Both the position numbers and the translations under genes were made by a program. From Candidatus Bilamarchaeaceae archaeon (GTDB taxonomy: Archaea; Micrarchaeota; Micrarchaeia; Anstonellales; Bilamarchaeaceae): a stretch of DNA of 64,000 nucleotides. Position 1 is the stretch's first letter, and every line of letters starts with the position of its first letter. The stretch is taken from the NCBI GenBank assembly GCA_038851325.1, contig JAWCKZ010000001.1, positions 35,769 to 99,768 of the forward strand, read 5' to 3'. The notes beneath the pieces were generated by a model. The model saw only the letters and a program-made list of their open reading frames with translations, did no database searches and was not told the DNA's origin. Positions 6,783 through 64,000 of this stretch are shown one piece after another.

Positions 6783-6859
6783 TAAAAAATTACCGATAAT
6801 CTTAAAAGATTATATTATTCAAATTGCTAACAAAAAGTAAAAAAGAGGTGAGAACCCAA

Positions 6860-7216
6860 ATGGGAGGACTGCATATAATATCTGAGTTTTTTTCCTGCGA
6901 GAACAACGACGGATTAAAAAATAAGGAGGAATTACGTCGGGTGTGCAAAAAAATAGTAGACGAATGCGGCCTAAATGTTGTGGGCTCTTTTTTTCACAAA
7001 TTTGGAGATGAGGGAGGAGTGACTGGTGTTATTGTTTTAGCGGAATCCCACGTTTCCATTCATACCTGGCCAGAGAGAGGGGGCTTCGTTAACATGGATG
7101 TATTCGTTTGTAATGTAACGCAGGATAACAGCGAAAAGGCCAGAGAGGTACACAGAAGGATTAAAGATTATTTTAAACCGAAAAAAGAAGAAACGCAGGA
7201 AATAATGAGAAAATGA
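6860..7216 (+). CDS. speH: S-adenosylmethionine decarboxylase proenzyme (pyruvoyl-dependent, class 1)
   Basis: ORF 6824..7216, internal Met start MGGLHII. It carries the hallmark …LAESHVSIHTWPE… self-cleavage/active-site motif and …VNMDVFVC…. Confidence 0.8.
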   Translation: MGGLHIISEFFSCENNDGLKNKEELRRVCKKIVDECGLNVVGSFFHKFGDEGGVTGVIVLAESHVSIHTWPERGGFVNMDVFVCNVTQDNSEKAREVHRRIKDYFKPKKEETQEIMRK

Positions 7217-37714: not shown

Positions 37715-38857
37715 TTGCCCAATGAGCTCATGATGAAGGTAACGCCTTGGGAAGTTGAAGGAATCATAGATTACAATAGGCTCATAAAAGAATTCGGAAC
37801 AAAGGAGATCGATGATGCCTTGCGGTCCAGGCTTGAGAAAGCAGCTGGCGAGAGTCATGTAATGCTAAGAAGAGGGTTCATATTTTCACATCGCGATCTT
37901 GAGCTTGTCCTTGACGACTACGAGAAAGGAAAGGGTTTTTTTCTCTATACTGGAAGAGGACCGAGTGGTCCGATGCACATAGGTCATCTTCTTCCTCTCA
38001 TTTTCACAAAATGGCTCCAGGAGCGCTTCGATGTAAATCTCTATATAGAGATAACAGATGATGAAAAATTTCTCTTCAAAAGAGAGTTAAGCTGGGAAGA
38101 CGTTAGCCGCTACTCAGAGGAAAACATCTTAGATATTGCGGCTGTTGGTTTTAACCCAGATAAAACATTCATATTCAAAGATAGTGAGTACATCGGTCAC
38201 TGCTACCCGCTACTGATGAAGATTGCGAAAAAGATAACATTCTCAACAGCAAAGGCAGTTTTTGGTTTTACAAATGAAACGAACGTTGGCGCAATATTCT
38301 ACCCAGCGTATCAGATAGTCCCGACGTTTTTTGAAAAAAAACGTTGTCTCATACCAAACGCGATAGACCAAGATCCATATTGGAGGATACAGCGTGATAT
38401 AGCAGAAAGTCTGGGCTACCTTAAGGCATCCGCAATCCACTCAAAGTTTATACCGCCTCTTCAAGGGGTAACTGGAAAGATGAGTTCAAGCGTTGCAGAC
38501 ACGGCGATTTGGTTGAGTGATGATGAAAAAAAAGTGAGCGAGAAGATAATGAAGTATGCTTTTTCAGGCGGCCAGCCAACAATTGCAGAACACAGGAAAA
38601 AAGGGGGCAAACCAGAGATTGATGTTTCGTTTCAATGGTTGAAAATTCTTTTTGAGCCTGACGATAAAAAGTTGAACACGATCGAGCAGGACTATCGCTC
38701 CGGAAAGCTTCTTACAGGAGAATTAAAGAAAATACTAATAGATAAAATAAACGAATTTCTGATGGAACATAGAAGAAGAAGGGAAAAGGTAGATGTAGAG
38801 AGATATACAAGAAAGGGGAGGTTAGCGCAGAAAATGTGGAGCGCATATTATTCGTGA
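37715..38857 (+). CDS. trpS: tryptophanyl-tRNA synthetase
   Basis: Class I HIGH-type motif (…TGRGPSGPMHIGHLLP…) and KMSKS-like …KMSSS… motif. Archaeal/eukaryotic-type length. Confidence 0.9.
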   Translation: MPNELMMKVTPWEVEGIIDYNRLIKEFGTKEIDDALRSRLEKAAGESHVMLRRGFIFSHRDLELVLDDYEKGKGFFLYTGRGPSGPMHIGHLLPLIFTKWLQERFDVNLYIEITDDEKFLFKRELSWEDVSRYSEENILDIAAVGFNPDKTFIFKDSEYIGHCYPLLMKIAKKITFSTAKAVFGFTNETNVGAIFYPAYQIVPTFFEKKRCLIPNAIDQDPYWRIQRDIAESLGYLKASAIHSKFIPPLQGVTGKMSSSVADTAIWLSDDEKKVSEKIMKYAFSGGQPTIAEHRKKGGKPEIDVSFQWLKILFEPDDKKLNTIEQDYRSGKLLTGELKKILIDKINEFLMEHRRRREKVDVERYTRKGRLAQKMWSAYYS

Positions 38858-39504
38858 TGGATATCCACCTTTGGCACTTTCTTATCCTCTTCACCCACTC
38901 TGAAATACTCGGCTTCTTTCATCCCCATTAGCAAAGCGAGTATAAAATCAGGGAAGACGTGAATACGTGTATTATAAAGATAGACTGTATCATTGTAGAA
39001 TTCTCTTCTGTCTGCTATTTGATTTTCTATGGCGACAAGTTGATTTTGAAGCTGCATAAAGTTTTCGCTTGCGCGTAGTTTTGGGTAATTTTCGGCCACG
39101 GCGAATATAGTCTTAAGCGCTTCGCTTATCTCCTCACTTGCTTTCGCCTTTTCCTTTAGTCCCTTCGCTACCAGCATTGCAGCACGAAGTTCTGTTATTT
39201 TAGAGAGAACACTGCGCTCGTGCTTCATATATCCCTCGACAGCCGCAACGAGGTTTGGCACAAGATCGTTCCTCTGTTTAAGAAGTACATCTATGTTTGC
39301 CCATGCCTTGCTTACCTGATTCCTTAATGATATCAGGCCGTTTATGATTGATATAGTATACACAATAAACAGCACTGCAAAAATGACAACCGCAAACCCC
39401 AAACAGCCCAAGCAGATGCTACCAACAGCGGACGGAGGTATCGTATACTGCTGCGCCACCATCAAACAGCGCCAGTAAGGAGAGTTATCGACAATGCCAA
39501 ACAT
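38848..39504 (-). CDS. LemA family protein
   Basis: N-terminal TM anchor followed by …NQVSKAWANIDVLLKQRNDLVPNLV…, typical of LemA. Confidence 0.75.
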   Translation of the reverse strand: MFGIVDNSPYWRCLMVAQQYTIPPSAVGSICLGCLGFAVVIFAVLFIVYTISIINGLISLRNQVSKAWANIDVLLKQRNDLVPNLVAAVEGYMKHERSVLSKITELRAAMLVAKGLKEKAKASEEISEALKTIFAVAENYPKLRASENFMQLQNQLVAIENQIADRREFYNDTVYLYNTRIHVFPDFILALLMGMKEAEYFRVGEEDKKVPKVDIHHE

Positions 39505-39520
39505 TTTAAAACCTCCTTTT

Positions 39521-40300
39521 TCACGTCATAAAATTGATGATAATCAAAGGAACACACATCCCACAGATGAGTAGGCCGACTGCGAGCCAGCCTATGATTT
39601 CCCATTTTATCTTTTCTGTTATATGCTTTTCTTCCTGGTCGCTGATATACATCACGTTATCTCTTCCCATGCAGATAATAAGGTTCTCATTGGCAGGACC
39701 GGCACCTGCCTCTGTTCTTACCTCTGCTGTCCCGAGCACATAAACGCGGTCGTCCTCATTTATGTAATATTCGGACACTCTCAGCAGACTATTGCTATGG
39801 ATTCGGAATTGCAACTTTGCTTCCGGGTGCTCATCAAGAAATTCCAATACCTTCTTGTCGAGCTGTTGTTGCGGCAGCAAGCCAAAGAATCCCCTGTCTG
39901 AGAGGTGACCTGTATATACATTGTCCGGAGGGATTTCTACAATTGCGTTTTTTGGGCTCACAAGTATCCGCCCTGTATCGTCCTCAAGATAGAATTCAGA
40001 GGATGCGTCCTTCTTGTAAAAAACGCACCATCTCCCTCCGTGCTTCCCGCTCTGATAATATTCTGCAACAAGACGCCAAAAAACACATTTTGTTTTTGTG
40101 ATGGGGCTTGTAATCGGCTCTTTGTATTTTGCTTTGCCATAGAGCTCCACGAGACCAAGTGCTGCGGAGCGCACCTTCGAAGTAGGGGTACTCTTTATCT
40201 TTTGCATGAGAAAATATTTCGAGACCGCAGTATATATGAAAACAAAGCCTATGATAAACGTGAAACCAACAAAGCAAACTTGCACCGGATTGAATGGCAT
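39521..40300 (-). CDS. membrane protein (259 aa; N- and C-terminal TM helices) likely co-operonic with LemA
   Basis: 16-nt gap to lemA. TM helix at each end with a soluble middle domain. Confidence 0.5.
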   Translation of the reverse strand: MPFNPVQVCFVGFTFIIGFVFIYTAVSKYFLMQKIKSTPTSKVRSAALGLVELYGKAKYKEPITSPITKTKCVFWRLVAEYYQSGKHGGRWCVFYKKDASSEFYLEDDTGRILVSPKNAIVEIPPDNVYTGHLSDRGFFGLLPQQQLDKKVLEFLDEHPEAKLQFRIHSNSLLRVSEYYINEDDRVYVLGTAEVRTEAGAGPANENLIICMGRDNVMYISDQEEKHITEKIKWEIIGWLAVGLLICGMCVPLIIINFMT

Positions 40301-40314
40301 ATATTTTATCCCAC

Positions 40315-40713
40315 CTATAAAAGTCGGAATTTAAATCCGTAATGGATCAGACCTTCTGGGTCATCTTTTTGTATCATCCTAAATACACTTTCAACCTCCG
40401 CGCCTACTTTAACATCTTCAGGCTTACAATCAACTACCTGCCCAAGAACCTTCGCGCCTTCATCAAGCTCCACTAACGCTATTATGTATGGAACTTGGTC
40501 CTCAAAACTGCTCGGCGCAGAATATATTACCGTATAACTATAAATTTTCCCCTTACCAGAAAATTGCACGTCTCTTACTTTTCCTTTTCTTCTGCATTTT
40601 GGGCAAATCGTCCGGCGTGGGAAGTAGCGCCCATTGCAAACTTCGCAAATAGAACCGATAAGTCTGTATCGTTCTGGTATCCTGCGCCACGTGAGTGGAA
40701 TGGACTCCTTCAC
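40315..40713 (-). CDS. DUF35-type Zn-ribbon/OB-fold protein (thiolase/HMG-CoA synthase-associated scaffold family)
   Basis: CxxC…CxxC ribbon (ICEVCNGRYFPRRTICPKCRRKG) followed by an OB-like domain (…IYSYTVIYS…IIALVELDEGAKVLGQV…). Confidence 0.65.
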   Translation of the reverse strand: MKESIPLTWRRIPERYRLIGSICEVCNGRYFPRRTICPKCRRKGKVRDVQFSGKGKIYSYTVIYSAPSSFEDQVPYIIALVELDEGAKVLGQVVDCKPEDVKVGAEVESVFRMIQKDDPEGLIHYGFKFRLL

Positions 40714-41369
40714 ATAATCACCCCTTTTTGTGTTTGCTCGTAGTGCTCCTTAAAGAGCTTTATTCCTTTTTCTGTGAGAGGATGGTGCCAAAGTTGTTCC
40801 AGCACTGTAGGTGGGATGGTTGCTATGTGCGCGCCAGCAAGTGCCGCCTCTACTACATGCTTTTCAGAACGAACAGATGCAACAATTATCTCTGTTTTAA
40901 ACTTATAGTTTGTATACACCTGAACTATCTGTCTCACGAGCTCCATTCCATTCTCACCAATATCATCAAGCCTTCCAACAAAAGGAGAAACATATGTCGC
41001 GCCTGCCTTTGCAGCTATGAGTGCCTGCGGTACCGAAAAAACTAGGGTCACATTTGTCTTTATTCCCTTTTCTGACAATATACGAACTGCGCGCATGCCT
41101 TCCTTGGTCATTGGTATTTTTATTACTATATTGCTCCCCAATTTAACATACTCTTCTGCCTCTTTTACCATTCCTTCAGCATCATCACTTATGACCTCAA
41201 CACTTAGAGGTTTGTTGCCTAGTAACCGAGCGATCTCCCTGGCGGCTTCTTCCTGCGTCTTTCCAGCTTTCATAACGAGCGTAGGATTCGTAGTCACCCC
41301 ATCGCATACTCCTAACTCAAGCGCTTTCTTTATTTCTCCTGCGTTGGCAGTATCGATGAAAAATTTCAT
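40710..41369 (-). CDS. transaldolase / fructose-6-phosphate aldolase (family 3B)
   Basis: ORF 40710..41414 with start at the internal MKFFIDTAN. …FIDTANAGEIKKALELGVCDGVTTNPTLV… and the Schiff-base Lys region …IVIKIPMT…. Confidence 0.85.
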   Translation of the reverse strand: MKFFIDTANAGEIKKALELGVCDGVTTNPTLVMKAGKTQEEAAREIARLLGNKPLSVEVISDDAEGMVKEAEEYVKLGSNIVIKIPMTKEGMRAVRILSEKGIKTNVTLVFSVPQALIAAKAGATYVSPFVGRLDDIGENGMELVRQIVQVYTNYKFKTEIIVASVRSEKHVVEAALAGAHIATIPPTVLEQLWHHPLTEKGIKLFKEHYEQTQKGVIM

Positions 41370-41414
41370 ATCCTCCCACCAAGAAAAGAATAAAAGCAAA
41401 CAATTTAAGAGCAT

Positions 41415-42284
41415 TCACTTCATATTCTCAAGTATTCTTAATACATAATCCGCCCCACCGGTTAGAGAGCGCTCAAATAGTTCTGCGCATTCAATGACTG
41501 AAGCATCCGACTCTCGAGAGAGAACCTTTGCAGAGAAAAGTTCCACCAGTTTACCCTTTTTATCCAAAGGGATACCTGTATCACTTATAAGCGCACTAAC
41601 TGCTGTTCTATAGGAGTATATGACGTGTTTTCCAAATTTCTGATCAAGCTTAACTATGGTTCTACCAACACATCCTATAGTTGAAGCGCTCTTCAGCACG
41701 AGTGCAAGCTCAATGAATCGTTCCGTTGCGGATCTTAAGGTTTTCTCACCTATATAAGACAGCACATTCAATGCAGCGAGGATATCGGAGTTTGTAAACA
41801 CCTCTCCAATAGTTGCCAGAGCATCCTTGTCATGAATATTATTTAACTCAAAATCAATCCGCTTTAAAAAACAAAGAGAGGCAGGAAGACCGTTTTTCAT
41901 ATTAGAAATCCTGTCAGCTGCTTGAAGAACTTCAATAAAATCCGCCTCCTTTTCAAGCGCTAAAAGAATATTTATCAAAGCCTGCGCTACTTTTTCCTGA
42001 TCATCCTTCTCAGAAAATTTTTTAATGAAGGATATTGCGAGTCCATCGTCATTCACGAAATTTTTTTCTTCGCCTTCGAATTTACCGAAGAAGGCTTCAA
42101 CAAAAATATGGAACTCGCTGTTGGCCACTTTTATTCTAAGAGGGGGTGGTGTTCTAAAAATTTGTGAGATGCCCGTATCCTTCATTGGTTCTTCTATCAT
42201 AGTCGGCGAACGCGATGTGAGAGTTATCCTCTTTTTAATGACTTCTGGCGTGTATCTTCGTTGGTTTCTCTCATCGATTTTCAT
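41415..42284 (-). CDS. hypothetical protein (about 290 aa)
   Basis: ORF 41415..42347, probable start at the internal MKIDERNQ. Confidence 0.45.
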   Translation of the reverse strand: MKIDERNQRRYTPEVIKKRITLTSRSPTMIEEPMKDTGISQIFRTPPPLRIKVANSEFHIFVEAFFGKFEGEEKNFVNDDGLAISFIKKFSEKDDQEKVAQALINILLALEKEADFIEVLQAADRISNMKNGLPASLCFLKRIDFELNNIHDKDALATIGEVFTNSDILAALNVLSYIGEKTLRSATERFIELALVLKSASTIGCVGRTIVKLDQKFGKHVIYSYRTAVSALISDTGIPLDKKGKLVELFSAKVLSRESDASVIECAELFERSLTGGADYVLRILENMK

Positions 42285-42498
42285 ATCTCCCCCTCCGACC
42301 CACACCAAACTATATAACATAACAGCAAAAAAATTTAAAGTTTGCACAAATTAATTGCCAATTTCAAGTTCTAAAACTATTTTAGAAACAACCAAATGTG
42401 TTCAGTACACATGAAGATACACAAAAGATGAAATAGTGGATGAGTTCGGTCATCGTTATGCGTATAATTTTAAACTCTTACCAATATGATTATGATTT

Positions 42499-44358: not shown

Positions 44359-44510
44359 CCCTAAAACGCAGGGAGGGGGCTGATGTTTTCTTCTATTCCC
44401 CTCCCTTCATTTTTAGGGCTAATTCTGATTCCCTCCCTAAAACGCAGGGAGGGGGCTGATGTTTTCTTCTATTCCCCTCCCTTCATTTTTAGGGCTAATT
44501 CTGATTCCCT
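44359..44510 (+). repeat. two exact tandem copies of a 76-nt unit, each a long near-perfect hairpin (CCCTAAAA…GGGAGGGG…CCCCTCCC…TTTTTAGGG)
   Basis: Copy 1 at 44359-44434 and copy 2 at 44435-44510, read directly. ORF-track entries 44142..44459 and 44383..44628 are translations of this repeat. Confidence 0.85.
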
Positions 44511-44598
44511 CCCCTTTCTGTTTATTTATGTTTGTTTATTTATCTTTTTGTTTGTTTTATGTTTTTGTGTTTTTGTTTTGCGCCGATTTTATTTCAGA

Positions 44599-44717
44599 AG
44601 AAAACCTCCCACGACCGCCGTGGCCTGAGAGAAACATAAGTCCACGGCACATAGAAAACATTAGGAAAACAGAGAAAACAGAAAGAAACTTAAGAAAACA
44701 GGAGGAATACATAAAAA
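44599..44717 (+). repeat. single copy of the ~105-nt RNA-gene-associated module, ending exactly at the 5' end of the candidate ncRNA
   Basis: …gaaaacctcccacgaccgccgtggcctgagagaaacataagtccacggcacatagaaaacattaggaaaacagagaaaacagaaagaaacttaagaaaacaggaggaatacataaaaag. The last ~30 nt are identical to the 30 nt preceding tRNA-Arg(TCG). Confidence 0.8.
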
Positions 44718-44923
44718 GGTGAGGAGAGTAGTCTGCCTTCTGTTGTAGCGGCATTTTACTACGCGGCGTAAAGCCTTGCACAATCATCGAAAGGAAAGCG
44801 TCCGTTTCATCCAAGTCAAAGCTTGGTATCGTTTCTGTTACGCTTTCAGCTCCTTAAGAGCATCACATTCTCTTGTGGGCAGAACTTCCTCCGAATCATT
44901 CGGTGAGCCGCTCTCTCCTCACC
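44718..44923 (+). ncRNA. candidate structured ncRNA (~206 nt) closed by an 11-bp terminal helix; identity unresolved (SRP RNA-like or RNase P-like motifs)
   Basis: 5' GGTGAGGAGAG pairs perfectly with 3' CTCTCTCCTCACC. Internal hairpins include CCAAG-TCAAAG-CTTGG and CCGAA-TCA-TTCGG, plus a GNRA-tetraloop-like …UCGAAAGGAAAGCGUCCG…. No ORF of at least 60 aa on this strand. It sits where the repeat module otherwise precedes tRNAs. Confidence 0.5.
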
Positions 44924-45222: not shown

Positions 45223-45350
45223 TGCCGCGGGCCGGAGTTTTTGGCAGCTGCGCGGGCAGCCTGAACCAGCGACCCCTCGGTCTTCAGCCGAGTGCTCTCC
45301 CAACAGCACGCCCTAGTGGCGAACCACCCAGAGCTCTGAGCTACCGCGGC
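45223..45350 (-). tRNA. tRNA-Phe (anticodon GAA) with two non-canonical introns: about 32 nt in the D-loop and about 23 nt in the T-loop
   Basis: Minus-strand reading: GCCGCGG-TA-GCTC-AG[AGCTCTGGGTGGTTCGCCACTAGGGCGTGCTG]TTGGGA-GAGC-A-CTCGG-CTGAAGA-CCGAG-GGGTC-GCTGG-TTCA[GGCTGCCCGCGCAGCTGCCAAAA]ACT-CCGGC-CCGCGGC-A. Removing the bracketed segments gives a canonical 73-nt tRNA-Phe with the classic AGTTGGGAGAGC D-arm. Confidence 0.6.
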
Positions 45351-45875: not shown

Positions 45876-46126
45876 AAACTTACCTGAGAAAAACTAAACA
45901 GCTGCCGTGGCCTGAGAAAAACATAAGCCCACGGCACATAGAAAACATTTAGAAAACAGAGAAAACAGAAAGAAACTTAAGAAAATAGTAAGAAAACCTA
46001 AATAGTAAGAAAACCTCCACGACCGCCGTGGCCTGAGAAAAACATAAGCCCACGGCACCTTGAGAACATTTAGAAAACAGAGAAAACAGAAAGAAACTTA
46101 AGAAAATAGTAAGAATAAATAAAAAC
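45876..46126 (+). repeat. two tandem copies of the ~105-nt RNA-gene-associated module immediately 5' of tRNA-Arg(TCT)
   Basis: …ccgtggcctgagaaaaacataagcccacggcacatagaaaacatttagaaaacagagaaaacagaaagaaacttaagaaaatagtaagaaaacctaaatagtaagaaaacctccacgaccgccgtggcctgag… read directly. A TATA-like cttatataaa sits about 45 nt upstream, around 45829-45838. Confidence 0.8.
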
Positions 46127-46232
46127 GGGCCCGTGGCGCAGCCTGGATAGCGCAGCAGCCTTCTATGCGTTTCGAACTTCGTTCAAACCCCAAGAGAGCT
46201 GACGGTCGCGAGTTCAAATCTCGCCGGGCCCG
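46127..46232 (+). tRNA. tRNA-Arg (anticodon TCT) with a 31-nt intron at the canonical 37/38 position
   Basis: GGGCCCG-TG-GCGC-AGCCTGGATA-GCGC-A-GCAGC-CTTCTA[TGCGTTTCGAACTTCGTTCAAACCCCAAGAG]A-GCTGA-CGGTC-GCGAG-TTCAAAT-CTCGC-CGGGCCC-G. The T-arm and acceptor are perfect. The anticodon stem has one G/A mismatch at its base. Confidence 0.6.
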
Positions 46233-58145: not shown

Positions 58146-59027
58146 GTGAAAAAAATCGACTGCTTAGAAAAACATATAGACGAAAGCGCAAAAAGGCTTG
58201 AAGAGCTCGATGGCGCAAAGCAGGACGAATACGAGCTGCCATATTTTTCAAAAGATGTTCCCCTGTCATCCCAGAAAAGACGTTCCGGACACTTAATGAC
58301 AGTCACATATAACTGGCAAAATCTTTACGAAACGACCATGAAGATAAAGGAGATAACATACGAAGAAAACGCCGGACTCGCAGAGCTTTACAAGATCCCT
58401 TTGCATGATGGTGTAGACCGAGGCGCATTTAATTTCAGAGGGAATGTATATACGATATATAAGGTCAGTGAGTACGCAGCCAAGAAAATATACGAAAATG
58501 CAAAGATGGTCACAGAAATTGTAGAGAAGATAGTTGGATACTTCAAAACAATGCTTGGAAACTTTTATATAATCGGAAAGATTGAGCAGGAGGCGTGGGT
58601 GTTTGATGAAGAACGCAAAGCAGAAGGTATAAACATCTTGAATGTTTCATCATTAAGAGAGGATTGCAAAAGAACACTTTTCGAGCGAACCTTGGAAAAG
58701 ATCGCTGACCTTCACCTCAACGACTTCATTCTTGGAAACTTTTCAATTAATAGTGTGATGCTACACGATAAGAAATTGCTCTTCTCTGATTTGAGAATGC
58801 TTAAGAAAACAAGGAAATTGTCATTTTTAGTACGGGAATTCCAAAAGGTTATCTCTGTACTCTGCACGAATGGTATTGTGGCTGAACAGGAGCAGATTGC
58901 ATATGCTGTCAGGTACTATGTAGGCGAAAACCCAATCGCATCAAAAGAGTGGTTTAAGGAAGAAACAAAAAGAGAGCCAAAGGATGACGAGGAGATAGCA
59001 GAGCTCCTTGAGCGCAAGTTCTGTTAG
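58146..59027 (+). CDS. hypothetical protein (293 aa) with a kinase-like catalytic-loop remnant
   Basis: …IADLHLNDFILGNFSINSVMLHDKKLLFSDL… resembles the HxDxxxxN…D region of atypical (RIO/Bud32/Kdo-like) kinases. No glycine-rich loop was seen. Confidence 0.4.
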   Translation: MKKIDCLEKHIDESAKRLEELDGAKQDEYELPYFSKDVPLSSQKRRSGHLMTVTYNWQNLYETTMKIKEITYEENAGLAELYKIPLHDGVDRGAFNFRGNVYTIYKVSEYAAKKIYENAKMVTEIVEKIVGYFKTMLGNFYIIGKIEQEAWVFDEERKAEGINILNVSSLREDCKRTLFERTLEKIADLHLNDFILGNFSINSVMLHDKKLLFSDLRMLKKTRKLSFLVREFQKVISVLCTNGIVAEQEQIAYAVRYYVGENPIASKEWFKEETKREPKDDEEIAELLERKFC

Positions 59028-59043: not shown

Positions 59044-61341
59044 TTAGATTGTTTCTACTTTTGTCGGACCACCATGCTCCTTATCTCTTGAAAAGCGATA
59101 CGTTGTTGAAAAATCTGCGCCTATAAGGGATTCTTCATGGGTTATCACAAACGTTTGTTTTACTACTTGCGGGACCTTTACCTGAAGAGTCTCTGAAAGA
59201 AGAGCAATAGCCTGAGCATCAAGATTGTGCGTTGGTTCATCAAGTATGAGCCAACTAAGATTCGGCGTCAGTATCATTGCTAGTGCGACACGAAGGGTGA
59301 GCGCAGCGCACGCGCGCTCTCCGCCGCTCGCAACTATTTCAAGCGGTTTCCAAACCTCGTTCTCTAAAACTTCGAGTACGTAGTCCTTCTCACTTACCTC
59401 AATGCGAATTGATTTGTAGTTGTTATACGGATAAAAAATACGCCATATATCATTCATCGCAGTGTTGATAGCGTCTATAAGTCCTTTTCTTAATGTTGTT
59501 TGAGTCTCGAGAAGAGCATTTTTGTAAATTTTCAATTCCTCTATCAACTCACGAATTGAGGTTGCTTTCTTGTAAACTGCTCTCATCTCATCTAGCTCGC
59601 GCTTGTAAATCTCCTTCCCCTCTTCCATCATTTTCTTTTCTTTTTCGAGATATTCAATCTTTTGCGCAAGCCTCTCGCACTCTAGTCTTCCACTTTCAAG
59701 CCTTCGCCTTACTTCTTCGTACTCTTTTTCATCAAACTTTATTTTTTCTTGTTCGCTTTCTAGAACAGCAAGCCTTTTTTTCACTGCTGCGGCTGTCTCC
59801 TCCCGTCTCAACATCTCTTCTTCGCCTTTCAACCGCATAAGCAGGTTTTCAATCTTCTGCCTTATTTCTGCTATCTCGCTCTCTCTCTTTTTGGTTGTCT
59901 CCGAAATTGTAGTTAGTTGCACATGCGCATGCTCTTTCTGTTTTATTAGCTCACTTACATCTACCAACCCTTGAGTGAGCACTGCGATTCTCTCGTTGAT
60001 GAACTCGATTTTTTTTACCCTCTCTCTAGTAACCCTGATGCTCCTCTCTGTCTCTTCGATTTCTTTTGCAAGAAGTGCTACTCTTTTTTCGGAGCTTCTT
60101 ATCTCCCCCTCCTTTTTTCTCAGTATTCTTGTAATGCCCTCTGGTCCAAGTTCTGATTCGCACAACGGACAACTTGTCATACCAGAAGATAGGTGTTTCA
60201 AAAGTTCTCTTAACTCCTTTACTTTTTCCATTTCGGTGTTTTTTTCTGAGGTTTTCTCAAGCATCTTCTTCTCAGCATCTGAGAGCGCACGTTGGATATT
60301 CTCAAGCGTCTCGCTGCGTAAAAGACCACCCCGAGTGGCATTTAGTTCTTCAAGCTTCTTCTGAAGTTCCACCTGCTCCTTTATTCTTGTCTCTATCACA
60401 ACTATGCGGTTCGATAATTCTTTTTCCTTCTTCATGTCTTCAAGGAGCGCTTCCTCACACATCTTTAGCCTTCCTCTAAGCTCTGCAAGCTGTGCTTTAT
60501 CTCTATTATACACTGCGATATCAACCCTCTTAAGCCCCTCTTCAAGGCTCGCTACTCTACCTTTTAATTCGGCGATTTCTCTTCCAAGTTCCTCAATTCT
60601 TTTCCTCTTTTTCTCCAATTCAACATAGACGATAGAGAGCTCTCTCACTTCTTTTTCTACTTTTGCGAATGTCTTCTTCAGAGATTCTGATTCTGCGTTG
60701 ATTTTACTTTCTTTCTCTTCGTATTCCATAATTGTCTTTCGAAGCTGTTCGACTCTTTTCTCGTCGTACTTCTCAAACAATGCTTGCGCCATCGCCTCAA
60801 ATTTGTTTGTTATCGTGACTGTATTTGCTCGTGCCTTCTCGAATCGGTCTAGGCCAAGAAGACGATCAAACTCTTCCTTTCGTCTTCTCGGGTCGAGAGA
60901 CAGAAAATAGTCTATGTTGTTCTGCTCGGAATAAATCGCACGCGTAAAAAGATCATAGTCTACACCTATCGTTTCCACTATTCGCTCACTTACTGCCCTT
61001 CCACCAGTTTCCAGAAGAGTGCCATCCCTATATAGCTCAGCCCTGCTGCTCATACGGTCGTTTCTTTTTCCTATCTCGCGCATAACTTTATAGTCGCTGC
61101 CGTTCCAGGAAAATTCAAGCATTACTCTTGTGGTGTTTTCGTTGTACCTAACAATATCCTCAAGCTTAAGTTGTCTTCGCTCGAGAGCAGGAAATGTCCC
61201 AAAAAGCGCAAAACTTATTCCGTCCAGAACAGCGCTCTTTCCGGAACCCATTATACCAACAAGAAGATTCGTTCCATGACTGAATTTAAGGAAAGTATCA
61301 GAGTGAGAACGCCAGTTAAAAAGTCTGATGGAACGAATCAT
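59044..61341 (-). CDS. rad50: Rad50/SbcC-family SMC-like ATPase with zinc hook
   Basis: N-terminal Walker A …LLVGIMGSGKSAVLDGISFALFG…, long coiled coils, central CPLC zinc hook, C-terminal signature …ASGGERACAAL… and Walker B …LILDEPTHNLD…. Confidence 0.8.
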   Translation of the reverse strand: MIRSIRLFNWRSHSDTFLKFSHGTNLLVGIMGSGKSAVLDGISFALFGTFPALERRQLKLEDIVRYNENTTRVMLEFSWNGSDYKVMREIGKRNDRMSSRAELYRDGTLLETGGRAVSERIVETIGVDYDLFTRAIYSEQNNIDYFLSLDPRRRKEEFDRLLGLDRFEKARANTVTITNKFEAMAQALFEKYDEKRVEQLRKTIMEYEEKESKINAESESLKKTFAKVEKEVRELSIVYVELEKKRKRIEELGREIAELKGRVASLEEGLKRVDIAVYNRDKAQLAELRGRLKMCEEALLEDMKKEKELSNRIVVIETRIKEQVELQKKLEELNATRGGLLRSETLENIQRALSDAEKKMLEKTSEKNTEMEKVKELRELLKHLSSGMTSCPLCESELGPEGITRILRKKEGEIRSSEKRVALLAKEIEETERSIRVTRERVKKIEFINERIAVLTQGLVDVSELIKQKEHAHVQLTTISETTKKRESEIAEIRQKIENLLMRLKGEEEMLRREETAAAVKKRLAVLESEQEKIKFDEKEYEEVRRRLESGRLECERLAQKIEYLEKEKKMMEEGKEIYKRELDEMRAVYKKATSIRELIEELKIYKNALLETQTTLRKGLIDAINTAMNDIWRIFYPYNNYKSIRIEVSEKDYVLEVLENEVWKPLEIVASGGERACAALTLRVALAMILTPNLSWLILDEPTHNLDAQAIALLSETLQVKVPQVVKQTFVITHEESLIGADFSTTYRFSRDKEHGGPTKVETI

Positions 61342-61414
61342 CGCGACTCACCAAATCGAATGCGGCCGCCGGGATTGTCAGCCTGCTGGCAAATGCTGCA
61401 CGCCAGTACAAGAC

Positions 61415-61729
61415 TTTTGAACCCGGGTCACAGGCTTTCTTCCCGAACCGCAGGGAACCTACGGTTCCCCTCAGTTTGAGGTTCCTCCTGATCCCCTCCC
61501 TTAGAGAATCCCTATGAGCAACCTAAGTTCTCCTCAGGGCTTTTGATGAAACTTTTGCCCGAACCGCAGGGAACCTACGGTTCCCCTCAGTTTGAGGCTC
61601 TCCCTGACTCCCATCTTTAAGGAGATCGCCTACAACCTGAGAACTCTCTCAGGGCTTTTTGGGAACCTCTTGCTCTTAGAAAACCCAAGAGCATAAGTTT
61701 TCCTCAGGGTTTTGATGAAACTTTTGCCC
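61415..61729 (+). repeat. about 2.3 tandem copies of a 116-nt repeat with a 40-nt invariant core containing a GGGAACC-TAC-GGTTCCC hairpin and recurring CTCAGGGYTTTT elements
   Basis: The core cccgaaccgcagggaacctacggttcccctcagtttgagg is identical at 61442-61481 and 61558-61597. Flanks are divergent. No cas genes and no CRISPR-like spacing. Confidence 0.75.
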
Positions 61730-61860
61730 TAAGAATATAGGAGACAAAAGTTTCTTGGAAGGCCTGAATCCTAACCATTGTCCTAAGTGTTGCCTATTGG
61801 TACTAAAGGCAAAAAGCCTCTAGACTACGGCCGCAGTGGAGAAGAAATGTCAGATTCTGT

Positions 61861-62190
61861 TTAAATAGTTTTCCCACTACTCGAATTAAAATTTCTGGAA
61901 AGCCAATTAAAGCATCTAGCCGCTCCCTCGAATGCACTCTGTTCAACAAGCCTCACGGCCGTCTCGAGATACCTCCTTACTCTTTCATGTAGTTCATCTT
62001 TTATCTCAGGAAGTATCAGAAACGGGTTCTGAGTACCAAGAGCGAGCGCGAATTCTCTTATAAATCGTCTTCCAGCGCTCTTCTTTATCTCTTTTATCGT
62101 CGGATTTTTTTCCTTGTCTGCAGCAAGTAGCGTTGCATCGTGAGTTTTGCGGTTTTCTGGTTTCAGGCTCCGTATGTTGCCGTGATCCAC
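61861..62190 (-). CDS. hypothetical protein (109 aa); possibly the frameshifted C-terminal part of the upstream archaeal ATPase
   Basis: Overlaps the 3' end of 62163..63317 by 28 nt in another frame. Archaeal-ATPase proteins often carry a ~100-aa C-terminal domain. Confidence 0.35.
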   Translation of the reverse strand: MDHGNIRSLKPENRKTHDATLLAADKEKNPTIKEIKKSAGRRFIREFALALGTQNPFLILPEIKDELHERVRRYLETAVRLVEQSAFEGAARCFNWLSRNFNSSSGKTI

Positions 62191-63317
62191 CTTTTGAGCA
62201 TCGGGTCGACTAGGACGTATTTTCCCACTGCCTTTTTCTTGACATATGATTTTTCAATAAGGCGCTCTATCATTTTTGCAATATTTGGAAGAGGTTTGCC
62301 AATTTTTCTGGCGATACCGGACATGTTCTCATTCCCAAGTCCTATTTCTATAAGAACACTTTTCTCCCCTGCAGAAAGCTTTTCTAAACTAGAACGAAAA
62401 ACAGCATCGCCCTCCGCCAGCATCACCTTTAGGGAGTCTTCTATTACAGCTTCGGTTATTTCTTTCTTTTCGGAATCATATATCTTATCACCTAGCCATT
62501 GAAGGTAATACGGATAACCTTCAGTAACATGATGGATCTTTTTTAGGTGTTCCTCTGTAAAAGAGAGACCTGCTTTTCTAAATTTCTCCCGCATCATCTT
62601 TATTGAAGTTGCTTCATCAAACGGACCGAGCTGATAAGGTTTCAGCAGATGAAAAAAAGGCGCAGTTTTTGGAAGTGCCATCTGCTCCAAAAGCGAGACT
62701 TCTGACCCACAAACAATTATCGATGTATTTTTCCATCTTTGGATGATAGCTCTTATTGCCCAGACGGTATTCTTCTCGAGTTCCTCAACCATCTGAAATT
62801 CATCAAATATCAGAATAGCCCGGCTCTTTGTTTCCCTCCCAAGACTTTCTGCTACACCAAACGATTTTTTGATCAAATCCTGAAGACTGGCTTTCTTTTC
62901 CTTGAAACTCACTTTGACTTGCAAATAATCCTTTATGGAAACCCCAACCTCGGTACTTCTCAGCAACGCAGCCAATGCTTCCCCGGAACCTTTTAGTGCC
63001 TCGATCAACCGGCTTTTTATCTCCCTCTTTGGCCTAAACGCATCCACGCATTTCAAGAATAGTTGATCGTGAAAAGACTCTATGTCGAAGGGATGCAGAC
63101 TGGAAACATCAAAATACACAGGGGTTGCAGAACTCTTCTTTTTCACCCTATTGACAAACTCTTCCAGAAGGGAGGTCTTTCCGATCCGCCTGGGACCGTA
63201 TATGACATAACCAAGTTTGCCTCTTTTAACCAGGTCCCTATAAAGCATTTCGAGCACTTTTTCTCTGCCGTAGAAATCTTTTCCAACTACTGGGCCACCG
63301 ACCTTAAACAAAGTCAT
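62163..63317 (-). CDS. archaeal ATPase-family (AAA-like) protein
   Basis: Walker A …YGPRRIGKTSLL…, Walker B …LIFDEFQ…. Architecture typical of the Arch_ATPase family common in archaeal accessory regions. Confidence 0.7.
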   Translation of the reverse strand: MTLFKVGGPVVGKDFYGREKVLEMLYRDLVKRGKLGYVIYGPRRIGKTSLLEEFVNRVKKKSSATPVYFDVSSLHPFDIESFHDQLFLKCVDAFRPKREIKSRLIEALKGSGEALAALLRSTEVGVSIKDYLQVKVSFKEKKASLQDLIKKSFGVAESLGRETKSRAILIFDEFQMVEELEKNTVWAIRAIIQRWKNTSIIVCGSEVSLLEQMALPKTAPFFHLLKPYQLGPFDEATSIKMMREKFRKAGLSFTEEHLKKIHHVTEGYPYYLQWLGDKIYDSEKKEITEAVIEDSLKVMLAEGDAVFRSSLEKLSAGEKSVLIEIGLGNENMSGIARKIGKPLPNIAKMIERLIEKSYVKKKAVGKYVLVDPMLKRWITATYGA

Positions 63318-63330
63318 GTTATCCCCTTAA

Positions 63331-63362
63331 TTGACATTTTTGTCTATTGACATTTTTGTCAA
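63331..63362 (+). promoter_or_regulatory. tandem dyad-symmetric 14-nt sites (TTGACAtttttGTC ×2; the second is a perfect TTGACA-N4-TGTCAA palindrome) in the divergent region between the ATPase and the recombinase
   Basis: Read from the sequence at 63331-63344 and 63347-63362, 14 nt upstream of the ATPase start codon. Confidence 0.35.
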
Positions 63363-63668
63363 TAATACATATAAACCTTTGCTTATTGCTACACCAGATG
63401 CAGTTTCGGCCCAGCAATTATCAAAATCCAAATGAAAAAATAATGAAAATCAGCATGTGCCAGAATCTACTTTTTTGATGGAAAAATGGGCCCGCGGAGC
63501 CGCCTGATGGCAGTTTCCTGTTCAGAGTTGCCAGTTTCCAGACGTGAAAACGGAGGGTTTTCCGTTCCGGGCAACCAGTTCCCGGAATGCAGTGAAGAAC
63601 GACCTGCCTGGAAAGCAAAGCAAATCTCAAAAGAGCTTACGGCTAAATGGCCTGAAATAAAGCGGGAA

Positions 63669-64000
63669 ATGGAGTTCTTAGGCCGCTATCTGACAAAATG
63701 GAATCTGGTAAAGGCTATAACAATCCTGTCAGAAGCGAGAAAAAGCCGGTTTTTGAGAAGGAAAACACCAAAGTATGGCTCTATGAACAAGGGGTTTACG
63801 GAAGAGGAATTAGAGCGGTTTTTCAGCGTTATAGATGACCCTAAGCTGCATCTTCTCTTCAACTTCCAGGCAATAATGGGGTTGAGGATTGGAGAAGCAG
63901 TGCGGGTCAATATCAAAGACGTAAACTTGAAGACAAGAGAACTCCGCATCTTTACAGAGAAAACGGGCAAGACAGATTATCTCCTGCTGCCTTTGGACCT
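63669..64000 (+). CDS. tyrosine recombinase/integrase, 5' partial (runs off the window)
   Basis: Open frame from ATG 63669 to the window end. …FFSVIDDPKLHLLFNFQAIMGLRIGEAVRVNIKDVNLKTRELRIFTEKTGK… matches the box I region of phage-integrase-family catalytic domains, including the conserved Arg in GLRIGE. Confidence 0.6.
   Translation, partial: MEFLGRYLTKWNLVKAITILSEARKSRFLRRKTPKYGSMNKGFTEEELERFFSVIDDPKLHLLFNFQAIMGLRIGEAVRVNIKDVNLKTRELRIFTEKTGKTDYLLLPLD

What the first reader, a model, noticed from the sequence alone, without database searches (positions are those of the whole stretch)
61415..61729. 116-nt tandem repeat with an invariant hairpin core in the 5' region of rad50, and rad50 lacks an adjacent mre11
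Two full repeats share a 40-nt identical core (cccgaaccgcaGGGAACCtacGGTTCCCctcagtttgagg) followed by divergent about 75-nt tails, each ending in CTCAGGGYTTTT. A third partial tail follows. The element is non-coding. It could encode small RNAs with hairpin plus U-tract ends, or be a regulatory array for rad50. The usual archaeal mre11 partner is not within 2.5 kb on either side of rad50, where it is normally adjacent.
Basis: seen in the sequence. Interest (0 to 1): 0.5.

Follow-up and report, generated by a model that had tools for sequence, protein, structure and literature searches.

The report
Repeat-swollen intron inside a tRNA-Gly gene
The repeat is not a control region of rad50: it sits inside an unusually long intron of a three-intron glycine tRNA gene of a tiny DPANN archaeon, it varies in copy number between near-identical genomes, and its hairpin core matches a repeat family otherwise seen in giant viruses.

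Summary
There are two 116-nt units with an identical 40-nt core, plus a decayed third unit. The whole 474-nt stretch upstream of rad50 (61361-61834, minus strand) is a tRNA-Gly(UCC) gene split by three introns: D-loop about 41 nt, anticodon loop 319 nt, T-loop 41 nt. The repeat lies entirely inside the 319-nt intron.

In-silico splicing gives a perfect cloverleaf. Nine relatives carry tRNA-Gly(UCC) at the same place upstream of rad50, with 0 or 1 intron.

Two sister genomes (98% identical rad50) have the same three introns and identical exons, but a 148-nt intron with one unit. The window has two extra segments (54 and 117 nt) and a 7-substitution patch that makes the two cores identical. The array is therefore recent, polymorphic and dispensable intron DNA, not an sRNA or regulatory array.

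A 319-nt intron is 2.5 times the published maximum for archaeal tRNA introns (129 nt). Part of it recurs in the T-loop intron of another tRNA gene.

The hairpin core matches the end module of palindromic repeats that are abundant in giant-virus MAGs. This is unexplained.

Rad50 is genuine, and mre11 is absent next to it across this lineage.

The parts
61361..61834 (-). tRNA-Gly(UCC) gene with three introns (474 nt; mature tRNA about 73 nt, no encoded CCA)
   Evidence: Four blocks match the tRNA-Gly(UCC) that lies upstream of rad50 in relatives. The joined exons are called tRNA-Gly(tcc) by ARAGORN with a perfect cloverleaf. In an alignment with orthologues, 100% of cells are paired and 4 pairs show compensatory change.
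61820..61834 (-). Exon 1: acceptor 5' strand, D-stem 5' strand, start of D-loop (GCGGCCGTAGTCTAG)
61779..61819 (-). Intron 1, D-loop position 15/16, about 41 nt (boundaries +/-2 nt)
   Evidence: Relaxed BHB: H 3 of 4 pairs, h 2, h' 2. L004, L005 and L008 have a 41-nt intron at the same position. Identical in the sister genomes.
61756..61778 (-). Exon 2: rest of D-arm, anticodon stem 5' strand, anticodon UCC, A37
61437..61755 (-). Intron 2, canonical position 37/38, 319 nt; holds the whole tandem repeat
   Evidence: Central helix CUUC/GAAG pairs 4 of 4. The anticodon stem gives 5 bp as the outer helix. There is a 3-nt AAA bulge at the 3' site. Pair probabilities are about 0.92. The orthologous intron is 148 nt in L233 and L234.
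61416..61436 (-). Exon 3: A38, anticodon stem 3' strand, variable loop, T-stem 5' strand, T-loop to A59
61375..61415 (-). Intron 3, T-loop position 59/60, 41 nt
   Evidence: Near-canonical hBHBh': h 5 (T-stem), H 3 of 4, h' 4. The same position is used by an ARMAN-2 tRNA intron (PMC3239211).
61361..61374 (-). Exon 4: U60, T-stem 3' strand, acceptor 3' strand, discriminator A
61860..61867 (-). TATA-like box TATTTAAA, 26-33 nt upstream of the tRNA 5' end (overlaps the stop codon of the upstream ORF)
   Evidence: Read from the sequence. Its position fits an archaeal promoter. Promoter function is an inference.
61445..61560 (-). Unit 1 (3'-most in the RNA): about 117 nt absent from the sister genomes; carries the best-preserved hairpin module plus CCCCTCCCTTA
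   Evidence: Global alignment with L234; for the module
61561..61659 (-). Unit 2: orthologous to the single unit of the sister genomes
61660..61713 (-). Decayed unit 3: 54 nt absent from the sister genomes; keeps only GGGAACC of the hairpin
61442..61481 (.). 40-nt identical core, copy 1. It holds two overlapping hairpins: GGGAACC-TAC-GGTTCCC (7 bp) and, on the RNA strand, GAACCGUAGG-UUC-CCUGCGGUUC (10 bp). The second ends 2 nt before the 3' splice helix.
61558..61597 (.). 40-nt identical core, copy 2. It differs at 7 of 40 positions from the orthologous site in the sister genomes, against 1 difference in the other roughly 300 nt of the gene: a conversion or replacement tract.
61717..61754 (-). 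Hairpin at the 5' end of intron 2 (GAAACUUUUG ... CAAAAGUUUC, 10 bp). It starts one nucleotide after the 5' splice bulge.
   Evidence: (I2)
59044..61341 (-). rad50 (765 aa); its ATG lies 19 nt after the tRNA discriminator base, with no T-tract between
   Evidence: Pfam AAA_23 and SMC_N, with a weak zinc-hook match. The best PDB hits are archaeal Rad50. Walker A, Q-loop, CPxC hook, SGGE, Walker B and H-loop are invariant in 22 homologues.

Best explanation
The 474 nt upstream of rad50 are a tRNA-Gly(UCC) gene on the rad50 strand, interrupted by three endonuclease-type (bulge-helix-bulge, BHB) introns. The tandem repeat is the body of the 319-nt intron at the canonical 37/38 position.

How it works (inferred):
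- The precursor is transcribed from a TATA-like box about 30 nt upstream.
- The archaeal tRNA splicing endonuclease cuts in the two bulges of each BHB-like motif. In Micrarchaeota this is the broad-specificity epsilon2 type.
- An RNA ligase joins the exons.
- The intron, with all repeat units, is discarded, probably as a circle.

For intron 2, the splice-site structure consists of the anticodon stem, a 4-bp helix between anticodon-loop bases 32-35 (CUUC) and the last intron bases (GAAG), and a 3-nt AAA bulge. A hairpin at each intron end takes the place of the usual inner helix. One of these hairpins is the 10-bp hairpin in the 'core'.

The repeat units themselves are selfish or neutral intron DNA. 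The intron is a safe place for insertions, so it has grown by insertion or tandem amplification of a hairpin-bearing module. A short conversion tract then made the two cores identical.

The array has no demonstrated role for rad50. The one exception is that rad50 starts 19 nt after the tRNA with no terminator between, so it may be co-transcribed with it.
For: Shown:
1. Four short blocks of the intergenic stretch match the tRNA-Gly(UCC) that lies directly upstream of rad50 in L001-L009. The intronless orthologues are called tRNA-Gly(tcc) by ARAGORN and score 66 bits with Rfam tRNA.
2. The joined exons give tRNA-Gly(tcc) with all stems perfect. Across orthologues, 100% of cells pair and 4 pairs change on both sides, against at most 51% paired when partners are slid.
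3. BHB-like motifs sit at the three predicted junctions. For intron 2, the anticodon stem and central helix have pair probability about 0.92 in the full 392-nt fold.
4. Sister genomes L234 (GCA_038890785.1) and L233 (Logan SRR27730023) have the same three introns and 100% identical exons, but a 148-nt intron 2 with one unit. The window adds 54 and 117 nt. It also has 7 substitutions in the 40-nt core, against 1 elsewhere in the gene.
5. Disrupted tRNA genes are common in this genome. A hidden two-intron tRNA-Phe(GAA) lies at 45223-45350 and an intron-bearing tRNA at 46127-46232.
6. A roughly 75-nt part of intron 2 recurs in the T-loop intron of another tRNA gene in L234. The local alignment score is 52, against 17.9 +/- 2.9 (maximum 28) in 300 shuffles.

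From the literature:
- 56% of ARMAN-2 (Micrarchaeum) tRNA genes are disrupted, including at position 59/60, and its epsilon2 endonuclease cuts strict and relaxed BHB motifs (PMC3239211).
- Archaeal tRNA genes hold up to three introns (PMC8450103).
- Excised tRNA introns are circularised at the BHB motif (PMC12558985).
Against: - There is no expression data, and the splicing endonuclease gene is not in the window.
- The BHB motifs are relaxed. Intron 2 lacks a contiguous inner helix, and introns 1 and 3 each have one mismatch in the central helix. BHB-like patterns are not rare by chance: 57 strict hits in an all-against-all scan of the 516-nt region.
- In the sister allele, the central helix of intron 2 has a probability of only 0.2 in the thermodynamic ensemble.
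- A 319-nt intron is far outside the published range of 11-129 nt (PMC4090602).
- The expanded allele rests on one MAG assembly.
- I could not check whether a second, intact tRNA-Gly(UCC) exists elsewhere in the genome.
Confidence: 0.85

Rival explanations
1. One reading: the units are small-RNA genes (hairpin plus U-tract) or a cis-regulatory array that controls rad50.
For: The region is strongly structured on both strands (z = -4.5 and -5.7). The units end in T-runs on the + strand. rad50 starts 19 nt after the tRNA with no terminator, so anything in this transcript could influence rad50 expression.
Against: The repeat is bracketed by exons 2 and 3 of a tRNA on the minus strand. There is one terminator-like site, against 1.4 expected. 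No Rfam family matches. Copy number and the core sequence differ in genomes whose rad50 is 98% identical. Nine relatives have rad50 behind a tRNA-Gly without any such array.
Confidence: 0.03
2. The locus is a dead tRNA gene: a tRNA-Gly destroyed by insertions of mobile DNA, with the working copy elsewhere.
For: The intron is of unprecedented size. Its hairpin module belongs to a MITE-like repeat family. An integrase-bearing element and a 950-nt deletion lie within 2 kb, so the region is unstable.
Against: All 21 stem pairs are intact and the exons are 100% identical between the window and its sisters, while the intron changed. Every insert sits at a junction that can form a BHB-like motif. Small DPANN genomes normally carry one gene per tRNA (general knowledge, not tested here). 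The tRNA-Gly(UCC) position upstream of rad50 is conserved in all 11 related loci.
Confidence: 0.07
3. The 2.5-unit tandem arrangement is an assembly artefact: a repeat-induced loop or a chimera of two strain alleles. The real intron would then have one unit, as in the sister genomes.
For: Only one assembly shows it. The two sister assemblies agree on one unit, though they may not be independent of each other. A 40-nt exact repeat is the kind of sequence that confuses short-read graph assemblers.
Against: Units 1, 2 and 3 differ by about 30% outside the core, so each needs its own reads. The extra 54 and 117 nt occur nowhere else in the window. Other real structural differences separate the two genomes nearby.
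Confidence: 0.07
4. The repeat has a function of its own at the RNA level. The two cores could pair with each other into a second BHB, so that one 116-nt unit is excised as a separate circular RNA. Alternatively, the excised structured intron could be a stable functional RNA.
For: The two cores paired in trans give a formal hBHBh' with 8-bp flanking helices and CCC bulges. This would remove exactly 116 nt. Archaeal introns can be stable circles and can carry functional RNAs (PMC4090602, PMC12558985).
Against: The central helix would be four G-U pairs. The competing 10-bp hairpins and the 10+10-bp register are more stable. The sister genomes do without a second core. There are no C/D boxes on the sense strand and no Rfam hit.
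Confidence: 0.08

Closest known systems
Disrupted tRNA genes of ARMAN-2 (Candidatus Micrarchaeum acidiphilum) and their epsilon2 splicing endonuclease (PMC3239211, PMC3488258)
   Same: Same phylum. [quoted passage not shown] BHB motifs are relaxed (hBH type). The genes are invisible to standard tRNA finders.
   Different: The ARMAN-2 introns used in the cited assays are 13 and 25 nt long. Here one intron is 319 nt (148 nt in the sister genomes) and is built of tandem units. Three introns in one gene were described for Thermoproteales. For ARMAN-1 and ARMAN-2 the literature I read lists 'multiple' introns without giving a count.
Multi-intron tRNA genes and tRNA intron transposition in Thermoproteales (Sugahara 2008; Fujishima 2010, as cited in PMC4090602 and PMC4033280)
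   Same: Up to three introns per gene. Related intron sequences occur in different tRNA genes at different positions: here tRNA-Gly 37/38 and the T-loop of a second tRNA.
   Different: A different phylum and a different endonuclease type. Those introns are mostly 12-25 nt. No tandem amplification or strain-level copy-number change has been described in the papers I read.
Box C/D sRNA nested in the tRNA-Trp intron of Euryarchaeota (Clouet d'Orval 2001; Singh 2004, as cited in PMC4090602)
   Same: A long canonical-position intron that carries an extra RNA element and is excised as a circle.
   Different: No C or D boxes on the sense strand. UGAUGA occurs only on the antisense strand. The element is not conserved even in the sister genomes.
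MITE-like palindromic repeats of giant viruses (Pandoravirus submariner, PMC4495683; Pithovirus M1/M2, PMC10664404)
   Same: Short non-coding palindromic modules that occur in many copies and often in tandem clusters. The family found here in GVMAG contigs shares 22-23 nt plus 11 nt with the core of the window.
   Different: M1/M2 and submariner are different sequences. The family matched here is not in any searchable paper. In the window the modules are direct tandem copies inside an archaeal tRNA intron, not inverted pairs in viral intergenic DNA.

Membership tests
Archaeal tRNA gene with BHB (endonuclease-type) introns | Removing the inserts yields a canonical cloverleaf with an anticodon | tested here: met
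   ARAGORN calls the joined exons tRNA-Gly(tcc) and all stems are perfect. 100% of cells are paired and 4 pairs are compensatory.
Archaeal tRNA gene with BHB (endonuclease-type) introns | Orthology to an uninterrupted tRNA at the same locus in relatives | tested here: met
   L002, L007 and L009 have an intronless tRNA-Gly(tcc) directly upstream of rad50 (Rfam 66 bits).
Archaeal tRNA gene with BHB (endonuclease-type) introns | A bulge-helix-bulge motif, or a relaxed form of it, at each exon-intron junction | tested here: met
   All three are relaxed forms. Intron 2: h 5, H 4 of 4, 3-nt 3' bulge, no contiguous h'. Intron 3: h 5, H 3 of 4, h' 4. Intron 1: h 2, H 3 of 4, h' 2. Chance background is not negligible.
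Archaeal tRNA gene with BHB (endonuclease-type) introns | A splicing endonuclease able to cut relaxed or non-canonical motifs, encoded in the genome | not testable with these tools
   No candidate in the 64-kb window. Known for Micrarchaeum (PMC3239211).
Archaeal tRNA gene with BHB (endonuclease-type) introns | Mature spliced tRNA and excised intron detected | not testable with these tools
   No transcriptome data.
Transposed tRNA-intron families (Thermoproteales type) | Similar intron sequence in different tRNA genes or positions of one genome | tested here: met
   A 75-nt segment is shared by tRNA-Gly intron 2 and the T-loop intron of a second tRNA in L234. Score 52, against a shuffle maximum of 28.
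Palindromic MITE-like repeat family of giant-virus MAGs | Terminal module CAGGGAACC-TAC-GGTTCCCCTG..ACCCCTCCCTTA | tested here: met
   The window has CGCAGGGAACCTACGGTTCCCCTCAG, then an 18-nt insert, then CCCCTCCCTTA. The viral variant GGGAACCTACGGTTCCCCTCAGACCCCTCCCTTAA occurs in L225, L227, L229, L231 and L232. Outside the module there is no significant similarity.
Palindromic MITE-like repeat family of giant-virus MAGs | Two modules in inverted orientation 110-175 nt apart (terminal inverted repeats) | tested here: not met
   The window copies are direct repeats 116 nt apart. Viral copies are inverted pairs, though tandem arrays also occur there (L070, L085).
Palindromic MITE-like repeat family of giant-virus MAGs | Many dispersed copies in the host genome; target-site duplication; a transposase | tested here: inconclusive
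   No other copy in the 64-kb window or in 22 kb of the sister genome. No clear duplication is seen at viral copies. No transposase was identified.
Intron-encoded box C/D sRNA | C (RUGAUGA) and D (CUGA) boxes with guide sequences on the tRNA-sense strand | tested here: not met
   UGAUGA occurs only on the antisense (+) strand. No snoRNA or sRNA family in the Rfam E-value scan.
Rad50-Mre11 operon | The ATPase is Rad50: ABC ATPase motifs, coiled coil, CxxC zinc hook | tested here: met
Rad50-Mre11 operon | An Mre11 phosphoesterase gene adjacent to rad50 | tested here: not met
   No Metallophos protein next to rad50 in the window or in 11 related loci. In the window, the GNH[DE] motif occurs only in the PolD small subunit. 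No Mre11, HerA or NurA among 18 ORFs scanned.

The most novel reading that the evidence does not exclude
The 116-nt unit is a copy of an active mobile element that spreads between tRNA introns of Micrarchaeota, where it is harmless because it is spliced out. Its hairpin end module shares ancestry, or a mobilising enzyme, with the palindromic MITE-like repeats that fill giant-virus genomes. On this reading the window and its sister genomes capture an insertion plus a conversion event within about 2% sequence divergence. That would be a live snapshot of how archaeal tRNA introns grow and move, with a repeat family that crosses the boundary between archaea and eukaryotic viruses.
Probability: 0.25. 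Interest if true: 0.8.

Novelty: new variant of a known kind. Interest (0 to 1): 0.6.

Why it matters
How archaeal tRNA introns arise, move and grow is an old open question. [quoted passage not shown] This locus offers three things that bear on it.

- It offers such a snapshot. Near-identical genomes have identical exons and differ only by 54- and 117-nt insertions and a conversion tract inside one intron. Part of the same intron sequence sits in another tRNA gene at a different position.
- It extends the known size range of endonuclease-type tRNA introns from 129 to 319 nt. Standard tools (ARAGORN, Rfam) missed three of the five tRNA genes now recognised in this window, which matters for judging the tRNA complement of DPANN genomes.
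- The match of the hairpin module to giant-virus repeats, if it reflects descent, would be an unusual case of a repeat family shared between an archaeon and eukaryotic viruses.

For rad50 the result is deflationary. There is no special regulatory array, and the lack of an adjacent mre11 is a trait of the lineage.

Tried and rejected
1. Rfam found no family at the locus, either at gathering thresholds over the whole window or in an E-value scan of 60500-62500. The best match was an L20 leader at E = 0.21. ARAGORN found no tRNA there.

2. A sigma-70 promoter and terminator scan gave nothing above chance.

3. I considered box C/D sRNAs because UGAUGA and CUGA occur on the + strand. I rejected this because that is the wrong strand, there are no D'/C' boxes and there is no terminal stem.

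4. I considered attachment-site remnants of the nearby integrase element. I rejected this because the integrase element ends at a different tRNA fragment (63486-63498), 1.65 kb away.

5. A genome-contig scan with CCGCAGGGAACCNNNGGTTCCCCT gave 0 hits. The window's own genome is not in that collection.

6. The metagenome scan returned about 95 high-GC soil hits. These are a hairpin of bacterial RNase P RNA and are unrelated.

7. BLAST of the intron with the hairpin masked, against 0.9 Mb of giant-virus loci, found nothing better than shuffled controls. The similarity is confined to the module.

8. The look-up of the window's own Rad50 contig failed, so DNA beyond base 64000 and the rest of the MAG could not be read.

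9. The two cores can form a formal BHB with each other. I kept this only as a low-probability rival, because the central helix would be all G-U.

10. No terminal duplication was apparent at the viral copies.

11. I did not run a structure prediction on the conserved 293-aa neighbour of rad50. It has no Pfam hit and no PDB sequence hit.
Full report
**1. The observation**

Tandem Repeats Finder reports one array at 61442-61659: period 116, 1.9 copies, 82% matches. There is no further copy in the window with up to 3 mismatches, and none in 100 shuffles.

The tails of the two units are only 70% identical. At that rate a run of 40 identical positions has a probability of about 5e-7. A third, shortened unit follows at 61660-61732. 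The description is correct.

**2. Where the window comes from**

The 765-aa ORF at 59044-61341 (minus strand) is 100% identical to an NCBI protein of a 'Candidatus Bilamarchaeaceae archaeon' MAG (Micrarchaeota, DPANN) on a 183,863-bp contig.

It is a genuine Rad50:
- Pfam gives AAA_23 and SMC_N, plus a weak zinc-hook match.
- The best matches among solved structures are archaeal Rad50.
- Walker A, Q-loop, CPxC hook, SGGE signature, Walker B and H-loop are invariant among 22 homologues.

The genome is compact. Most gaps between ORFs are under 100 nt, so the 519-nt gap upstream of rad50 stands out.

**3. What the stretch is**

I fetched the rad50 loci of nine relatives (50-58% protein identity) and compared their upstream DNA with the 519-nt gap. 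Four short blocks matched, in order and on the rad50 strand.

In the relatives these blocks are contiguous, or nearly so, and form a tRNA-Gly(UCC) gene directly upstream of rad50:
- No intron in L002, L003, L007 and L009. ARAGORN calls these tRNA-Gly(tcc), and Rfam tRNA scores 66 bits.
- One intron of about 48 nt in the anticodon-loop region in L001.
- One 41-nt D-loop intron in L004, L005 and L008.

In the window the four blocks are exons at 61834-61820, 61778-61756, 61436-61416 and 61374-61361. They are separated by inserts of about 41, 319 and 41 nt.

Joined together, the exons are called tRNA-Gly(tcc) by ARAGORN, with every stem perfect. In an alignment with the orthologues, all 84 pair cells form standard pairs and four pairs change on both sides. 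When the 3' partners are slid by 1-3 columns, at most 51% pair.

The unspliced gene is invisible to ARAGORN and Rfam.

**4. Are the inserts introns?**

I tested each junction against the geometry of the archaeal BHB motif. In this motif a 4-bp helix is flanked by two 3-nt bulges that hold the cleavage sites, with a helix on either side.

- Intron 2 sits at the canonical 37/38 position. The anticodon stem is the outer helix (5 bp). Bases 32-35 (CUUC) pair with the last intron bases (GAAG), 4 of 4. The 3' site lies in an AAA bulge and the 5' site in the bulge C36-A37-A. There is no contiguous inner helix. Instead a 10-bp hairpin starts right after the 5' bulge, and the 10-bp 'core' hairpin ends 2 nt before GAAG. 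In an unconstrained fold of the 392-nt precursor, the anticodon stem and the central helix have pair probability about 0.92.
- Intron 3 (position 59/60) is nearly canonical: T-stem 5 bp, central helix 3 of 4, inner helix 4 bp.
- Intron 1 (position 15/16) is weaker: 2, 3 of 4, 2.

Such relaxed motifs are what the epsilon2 endonuclease of Micrarchaeum cuts. In that organism 56% of tRNA genes are disrupted, including at 59/60 (PMC3239211). Up to three introns per archaeal tRNA gene are known (PMC8450103).

The window itself holds other disrupted tRNA genes. A two-intron tRNA-Phe(GAA) at 45350-45223 was missed by both tools. An intron-bearing tRNA lies at 46127-46232.

The splicing itself is inferred, not shown.

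**5. Sister genomes settle the status of the repeat**

The 90% cluster of the Rad50 protein holds two more members. Their contigs are L234 (GCA_038890785.1) and L233 (Logan SRR27730023). Across 12.5 kb they are 98.7% identical to the window.

Both carry the same tRNA-Gly gene with the same three introns, and their exons are 100% identical to those of the window. Their intron 2, however, is 148 nt and holds a single unit. Relative to them the window has:
- an extra 54 nt (61660-61713, the decayed unit);
- an extra 117 nt (about 61445-61560, unit 1);
- seven substitutions within the 40-nt core of the orthologous unit 2.

The other roughly 300 nt of the gene differ at one position. In the sisters the site reads GAGAGGAACCGCAGGCGCTCTGCGGTTC. 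The GGGAACC/GGTTCCC palindrome is therefore absent, but the overlapping hairpin next to the 3' splice helix is kept (GAACCGCAG-loop-CTGCGGTTC).

Three conclusions follow.
1. The array is polymorphic at about 2% genome divergence. It is therefore dispensable and not a conserved RNA gene or regulator.
2. Units 1 and 2 differ by 30% outside the core, so unit 1 is not a fresh in-place duplicate of unit 2. It came from a diverged copy, either another locus or another allele.
3. The 'invariant core' is best explained by a short conversion or replacement tract, not by long-term selection on 40 nt.

The direction of change (gain in the window or loss in the sisters) cannot be fixed without an outgroup. 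Simple loss would not explain the seven clustered substitutions.

**6. An intron family**

In L234 a second tRNA gene lies 2.6 kb upstream of tRNA-Gly, at 6820-7063. It is most simply read as Ile-UAU. It has a T-loop insert of about 143 nt that shares a 75-nt segment with the 5' half of tRNA-Gly intron 2. The local alignment scores 52, against 17.9 +/- 2.9 (maximum 28) in 300 shuffles.

Related intron sequence in different tRNA genes at different positions is the pattern described as intron transposition in Thermoproteales (PMC4090602).

Published archaeal tRNA introns range from 11 to 129 nt (same review). The 148-nt and 319-nt alleles both exceed that range.

**7. The unexpected link**

A metagenome scan with the hairpin (20 specified bases) returned about 95 unrelated hits in bacterial RNase P RNA. 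It also returned 11 low-GC loci in which the hairpin is followed by GCGA-CCCCTCCCTTA.

The same 11-mer lies 21 nt after the hairpin in unit 1 of the window. The chance of that is about 1e-5 (my estimate from base composition).

Those loci encode giant-virus-like proteins: an RFC1-like ATPase, RING fingers, an intein with a homing endonuclease, and GT25/GT10 glycosyltransferases.

In IMG/VR the module occurs in 103 stretches, mostly giant-virus MAGs (GVMAG), with dozens of copies in single bins. It appears as inverted pairs 110-175 nt apart and as tandem arrays. The variant GGGAACCTACGGTTCCCCTCAG-A-CCCCTCCCTTAA in five viral loci equals the window's unit 1 apart from an 18-nt insert.

Among 185,579 prokaryotic species genomes only two MAG contigs match. 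Outside the module there is no significant similarity. No searchable paper holds the sequence. MITE-like repeats of other sequence are known in pandoraviruses and pithoviruses.

I regard the match as real. Its meaning is open: transfer, a shared mobilising enzyme, or convergence. In the window the modules are direct rather than inverted, and no other copy is present in the 64 kb.

**8. rad50 and mre11**

No Metallophos or Mre11 gene lies next to rad50 in the window or in any of the 11 related loci. The conserved order is tRNA-Gly, rad50, a roughly 290-aa protein without Pfam or PDB match, then PCNA.

In the window the GNH[DE] phosphoesterase motif occurs only in the PolD small subunit. The 18 ORFs scanned show no Mre11, HerA or NurA.

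The separation is therefore a trait of the lineage, not a peculiarity of this locus. Whether mre11 exists elsewhere in the genome could not be checked.

rad50 starts 19 nt after the tRNA with no T-tract between, in the window and in its sisters. More distant relatives have T-runs or TATA-like words there. Co-transcription of tRNA-Gly and rad50 is a reasonable inference, but it is untested.

**9. Verdict**

The finding is a correct observation with a wrong reading. The repeat is the swollen body of a canonical-position intron in a three-intron tRNA-Gly(UCC) gene. The kind of gene is known for Micrarchaeota. Four things are new, as far as the literature I could search shows:
- the size of the intron;
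- its tandem, strain-variable build;
- its kinship with another tRNA intron;
- the match of its hairpin module to giant-virus repeats.

The main caveats are the absence of expression data, the reliance on one MAG assembly for the expanded allele, and the lack of access to the rest of the genome.

Noticed in passing
window 45223-45350 (minus strand): A hidden tRNA-Phe(GAA) of 128 nt with two introns (D-loop about 27 nt, T-loop about 24 nt). ARAGORN and Rfam miss it, but ARAGORN recovers it after in-silico splicing.
   Followed up: partly
window 44359-44513: A perfect 76-nt x 2 tandem repeat in a 2.2-kb non-coding stretch. Each unit is a long hairpin that holds CGCAGGGA...CCCCTCCCTT, words shared with the tRNA-Gly intron module. 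It also holds CUGAUG and CUGA words that resemble C/D boxes.
   Followed up: no
window about 44617-44702, 45905-46000 and 46027-46115: Three copies of an element of about 90 nt. It consists of the hairpin CCGTGGCCTGAGAnAAACATAAGyCCACGG followed by runs of AGAAAACAG-like decamers. The copies flank the RNase P RNA and a tRNA gene.
   Followed up: no
window 44718-44923 (minus strand): An archaeal RNase P RNA match (95.6 bits) that spans the whole 288-position model in only 206 nt, so this is a strongly reduced RNase P RNA.
   Followed up: no
window 63486-64000; L234 6820-7063: Homology with the sister genome ends at 63499. That is exactly the start of the last 13 nt (CTCCGCGGGCCCA) of a tRNA gene, read as Ile-UAU. 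Beyond that point the window has a tyrosine-recombinase ORF whose first codons overlap the tRNA fragment. This looks like an integrated element at a tRNA 3' end that is absent from the sister genome.
   Followed up: partly
L234 6905-7050: The sister genome's second tRNA gene has a T-loop insert of about 143 nt, again above the published size range. It shares a 75-nt segment with tRNA-Gly intron 2.
   Followed up: yes
window 61861-62190; L234 8609-9652: The 109-aa ORF upstream of tRNA-Gly is the remnant of a 347-aa gene that is intact in the sister genomes. The window lacks about 950 nt of it.
   Followed up: partly
window 63329-63364: A 16-nt tandem or palindromic repeat (ATTGACATTTTTGTCT x 2.2) lies just upstream of the PF01637 ATPase gene and is conserved in the sister genome. 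It is possibly an operator.
   Followed up: no
window 58146-59027 (+ strand) and all 11 related loci: A protein of about 290 aa with no Pfam hit and no PDB sequence hit is always next to rad50. It is usually convergent with rad50 and is followed by PCNA. It is a candidate lineage-specific partner of Rad50.
   Followed up: no
window 61342-61360: rad50 starts 19 nt after the tRNA-Gly discriminator base. A GGTGA word lies 8-12 nt upstream of the ATG and there is no T-tract between. This suggests a tRNA-mRNA co-transcript.
   Followed up: partly
L019 versus L068/L113 (giant-virus-like contigs): Orthologous viral intergenic sites carry either a full palindromic element of about 130 nt or a single 'solo' hairpin with the loop inverted (GTA instead of TAC). 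This is evidence that the viral repeats are gained or collapsed by recombination between their hairpins.
   Followed up: partly
window 38848-42347 versus L001, L004, L008 and L009: In relatives the genes for transaldolase and the zf-ChsH2/OB protein lie within 2-3 kb upstream of rad50. In the window they are about 20 kb away on the other side. The rad50-PCNA block is therefore inverted or relocated, with a breakpoint next to the tRNA-Gly gene.
   Followed up: no
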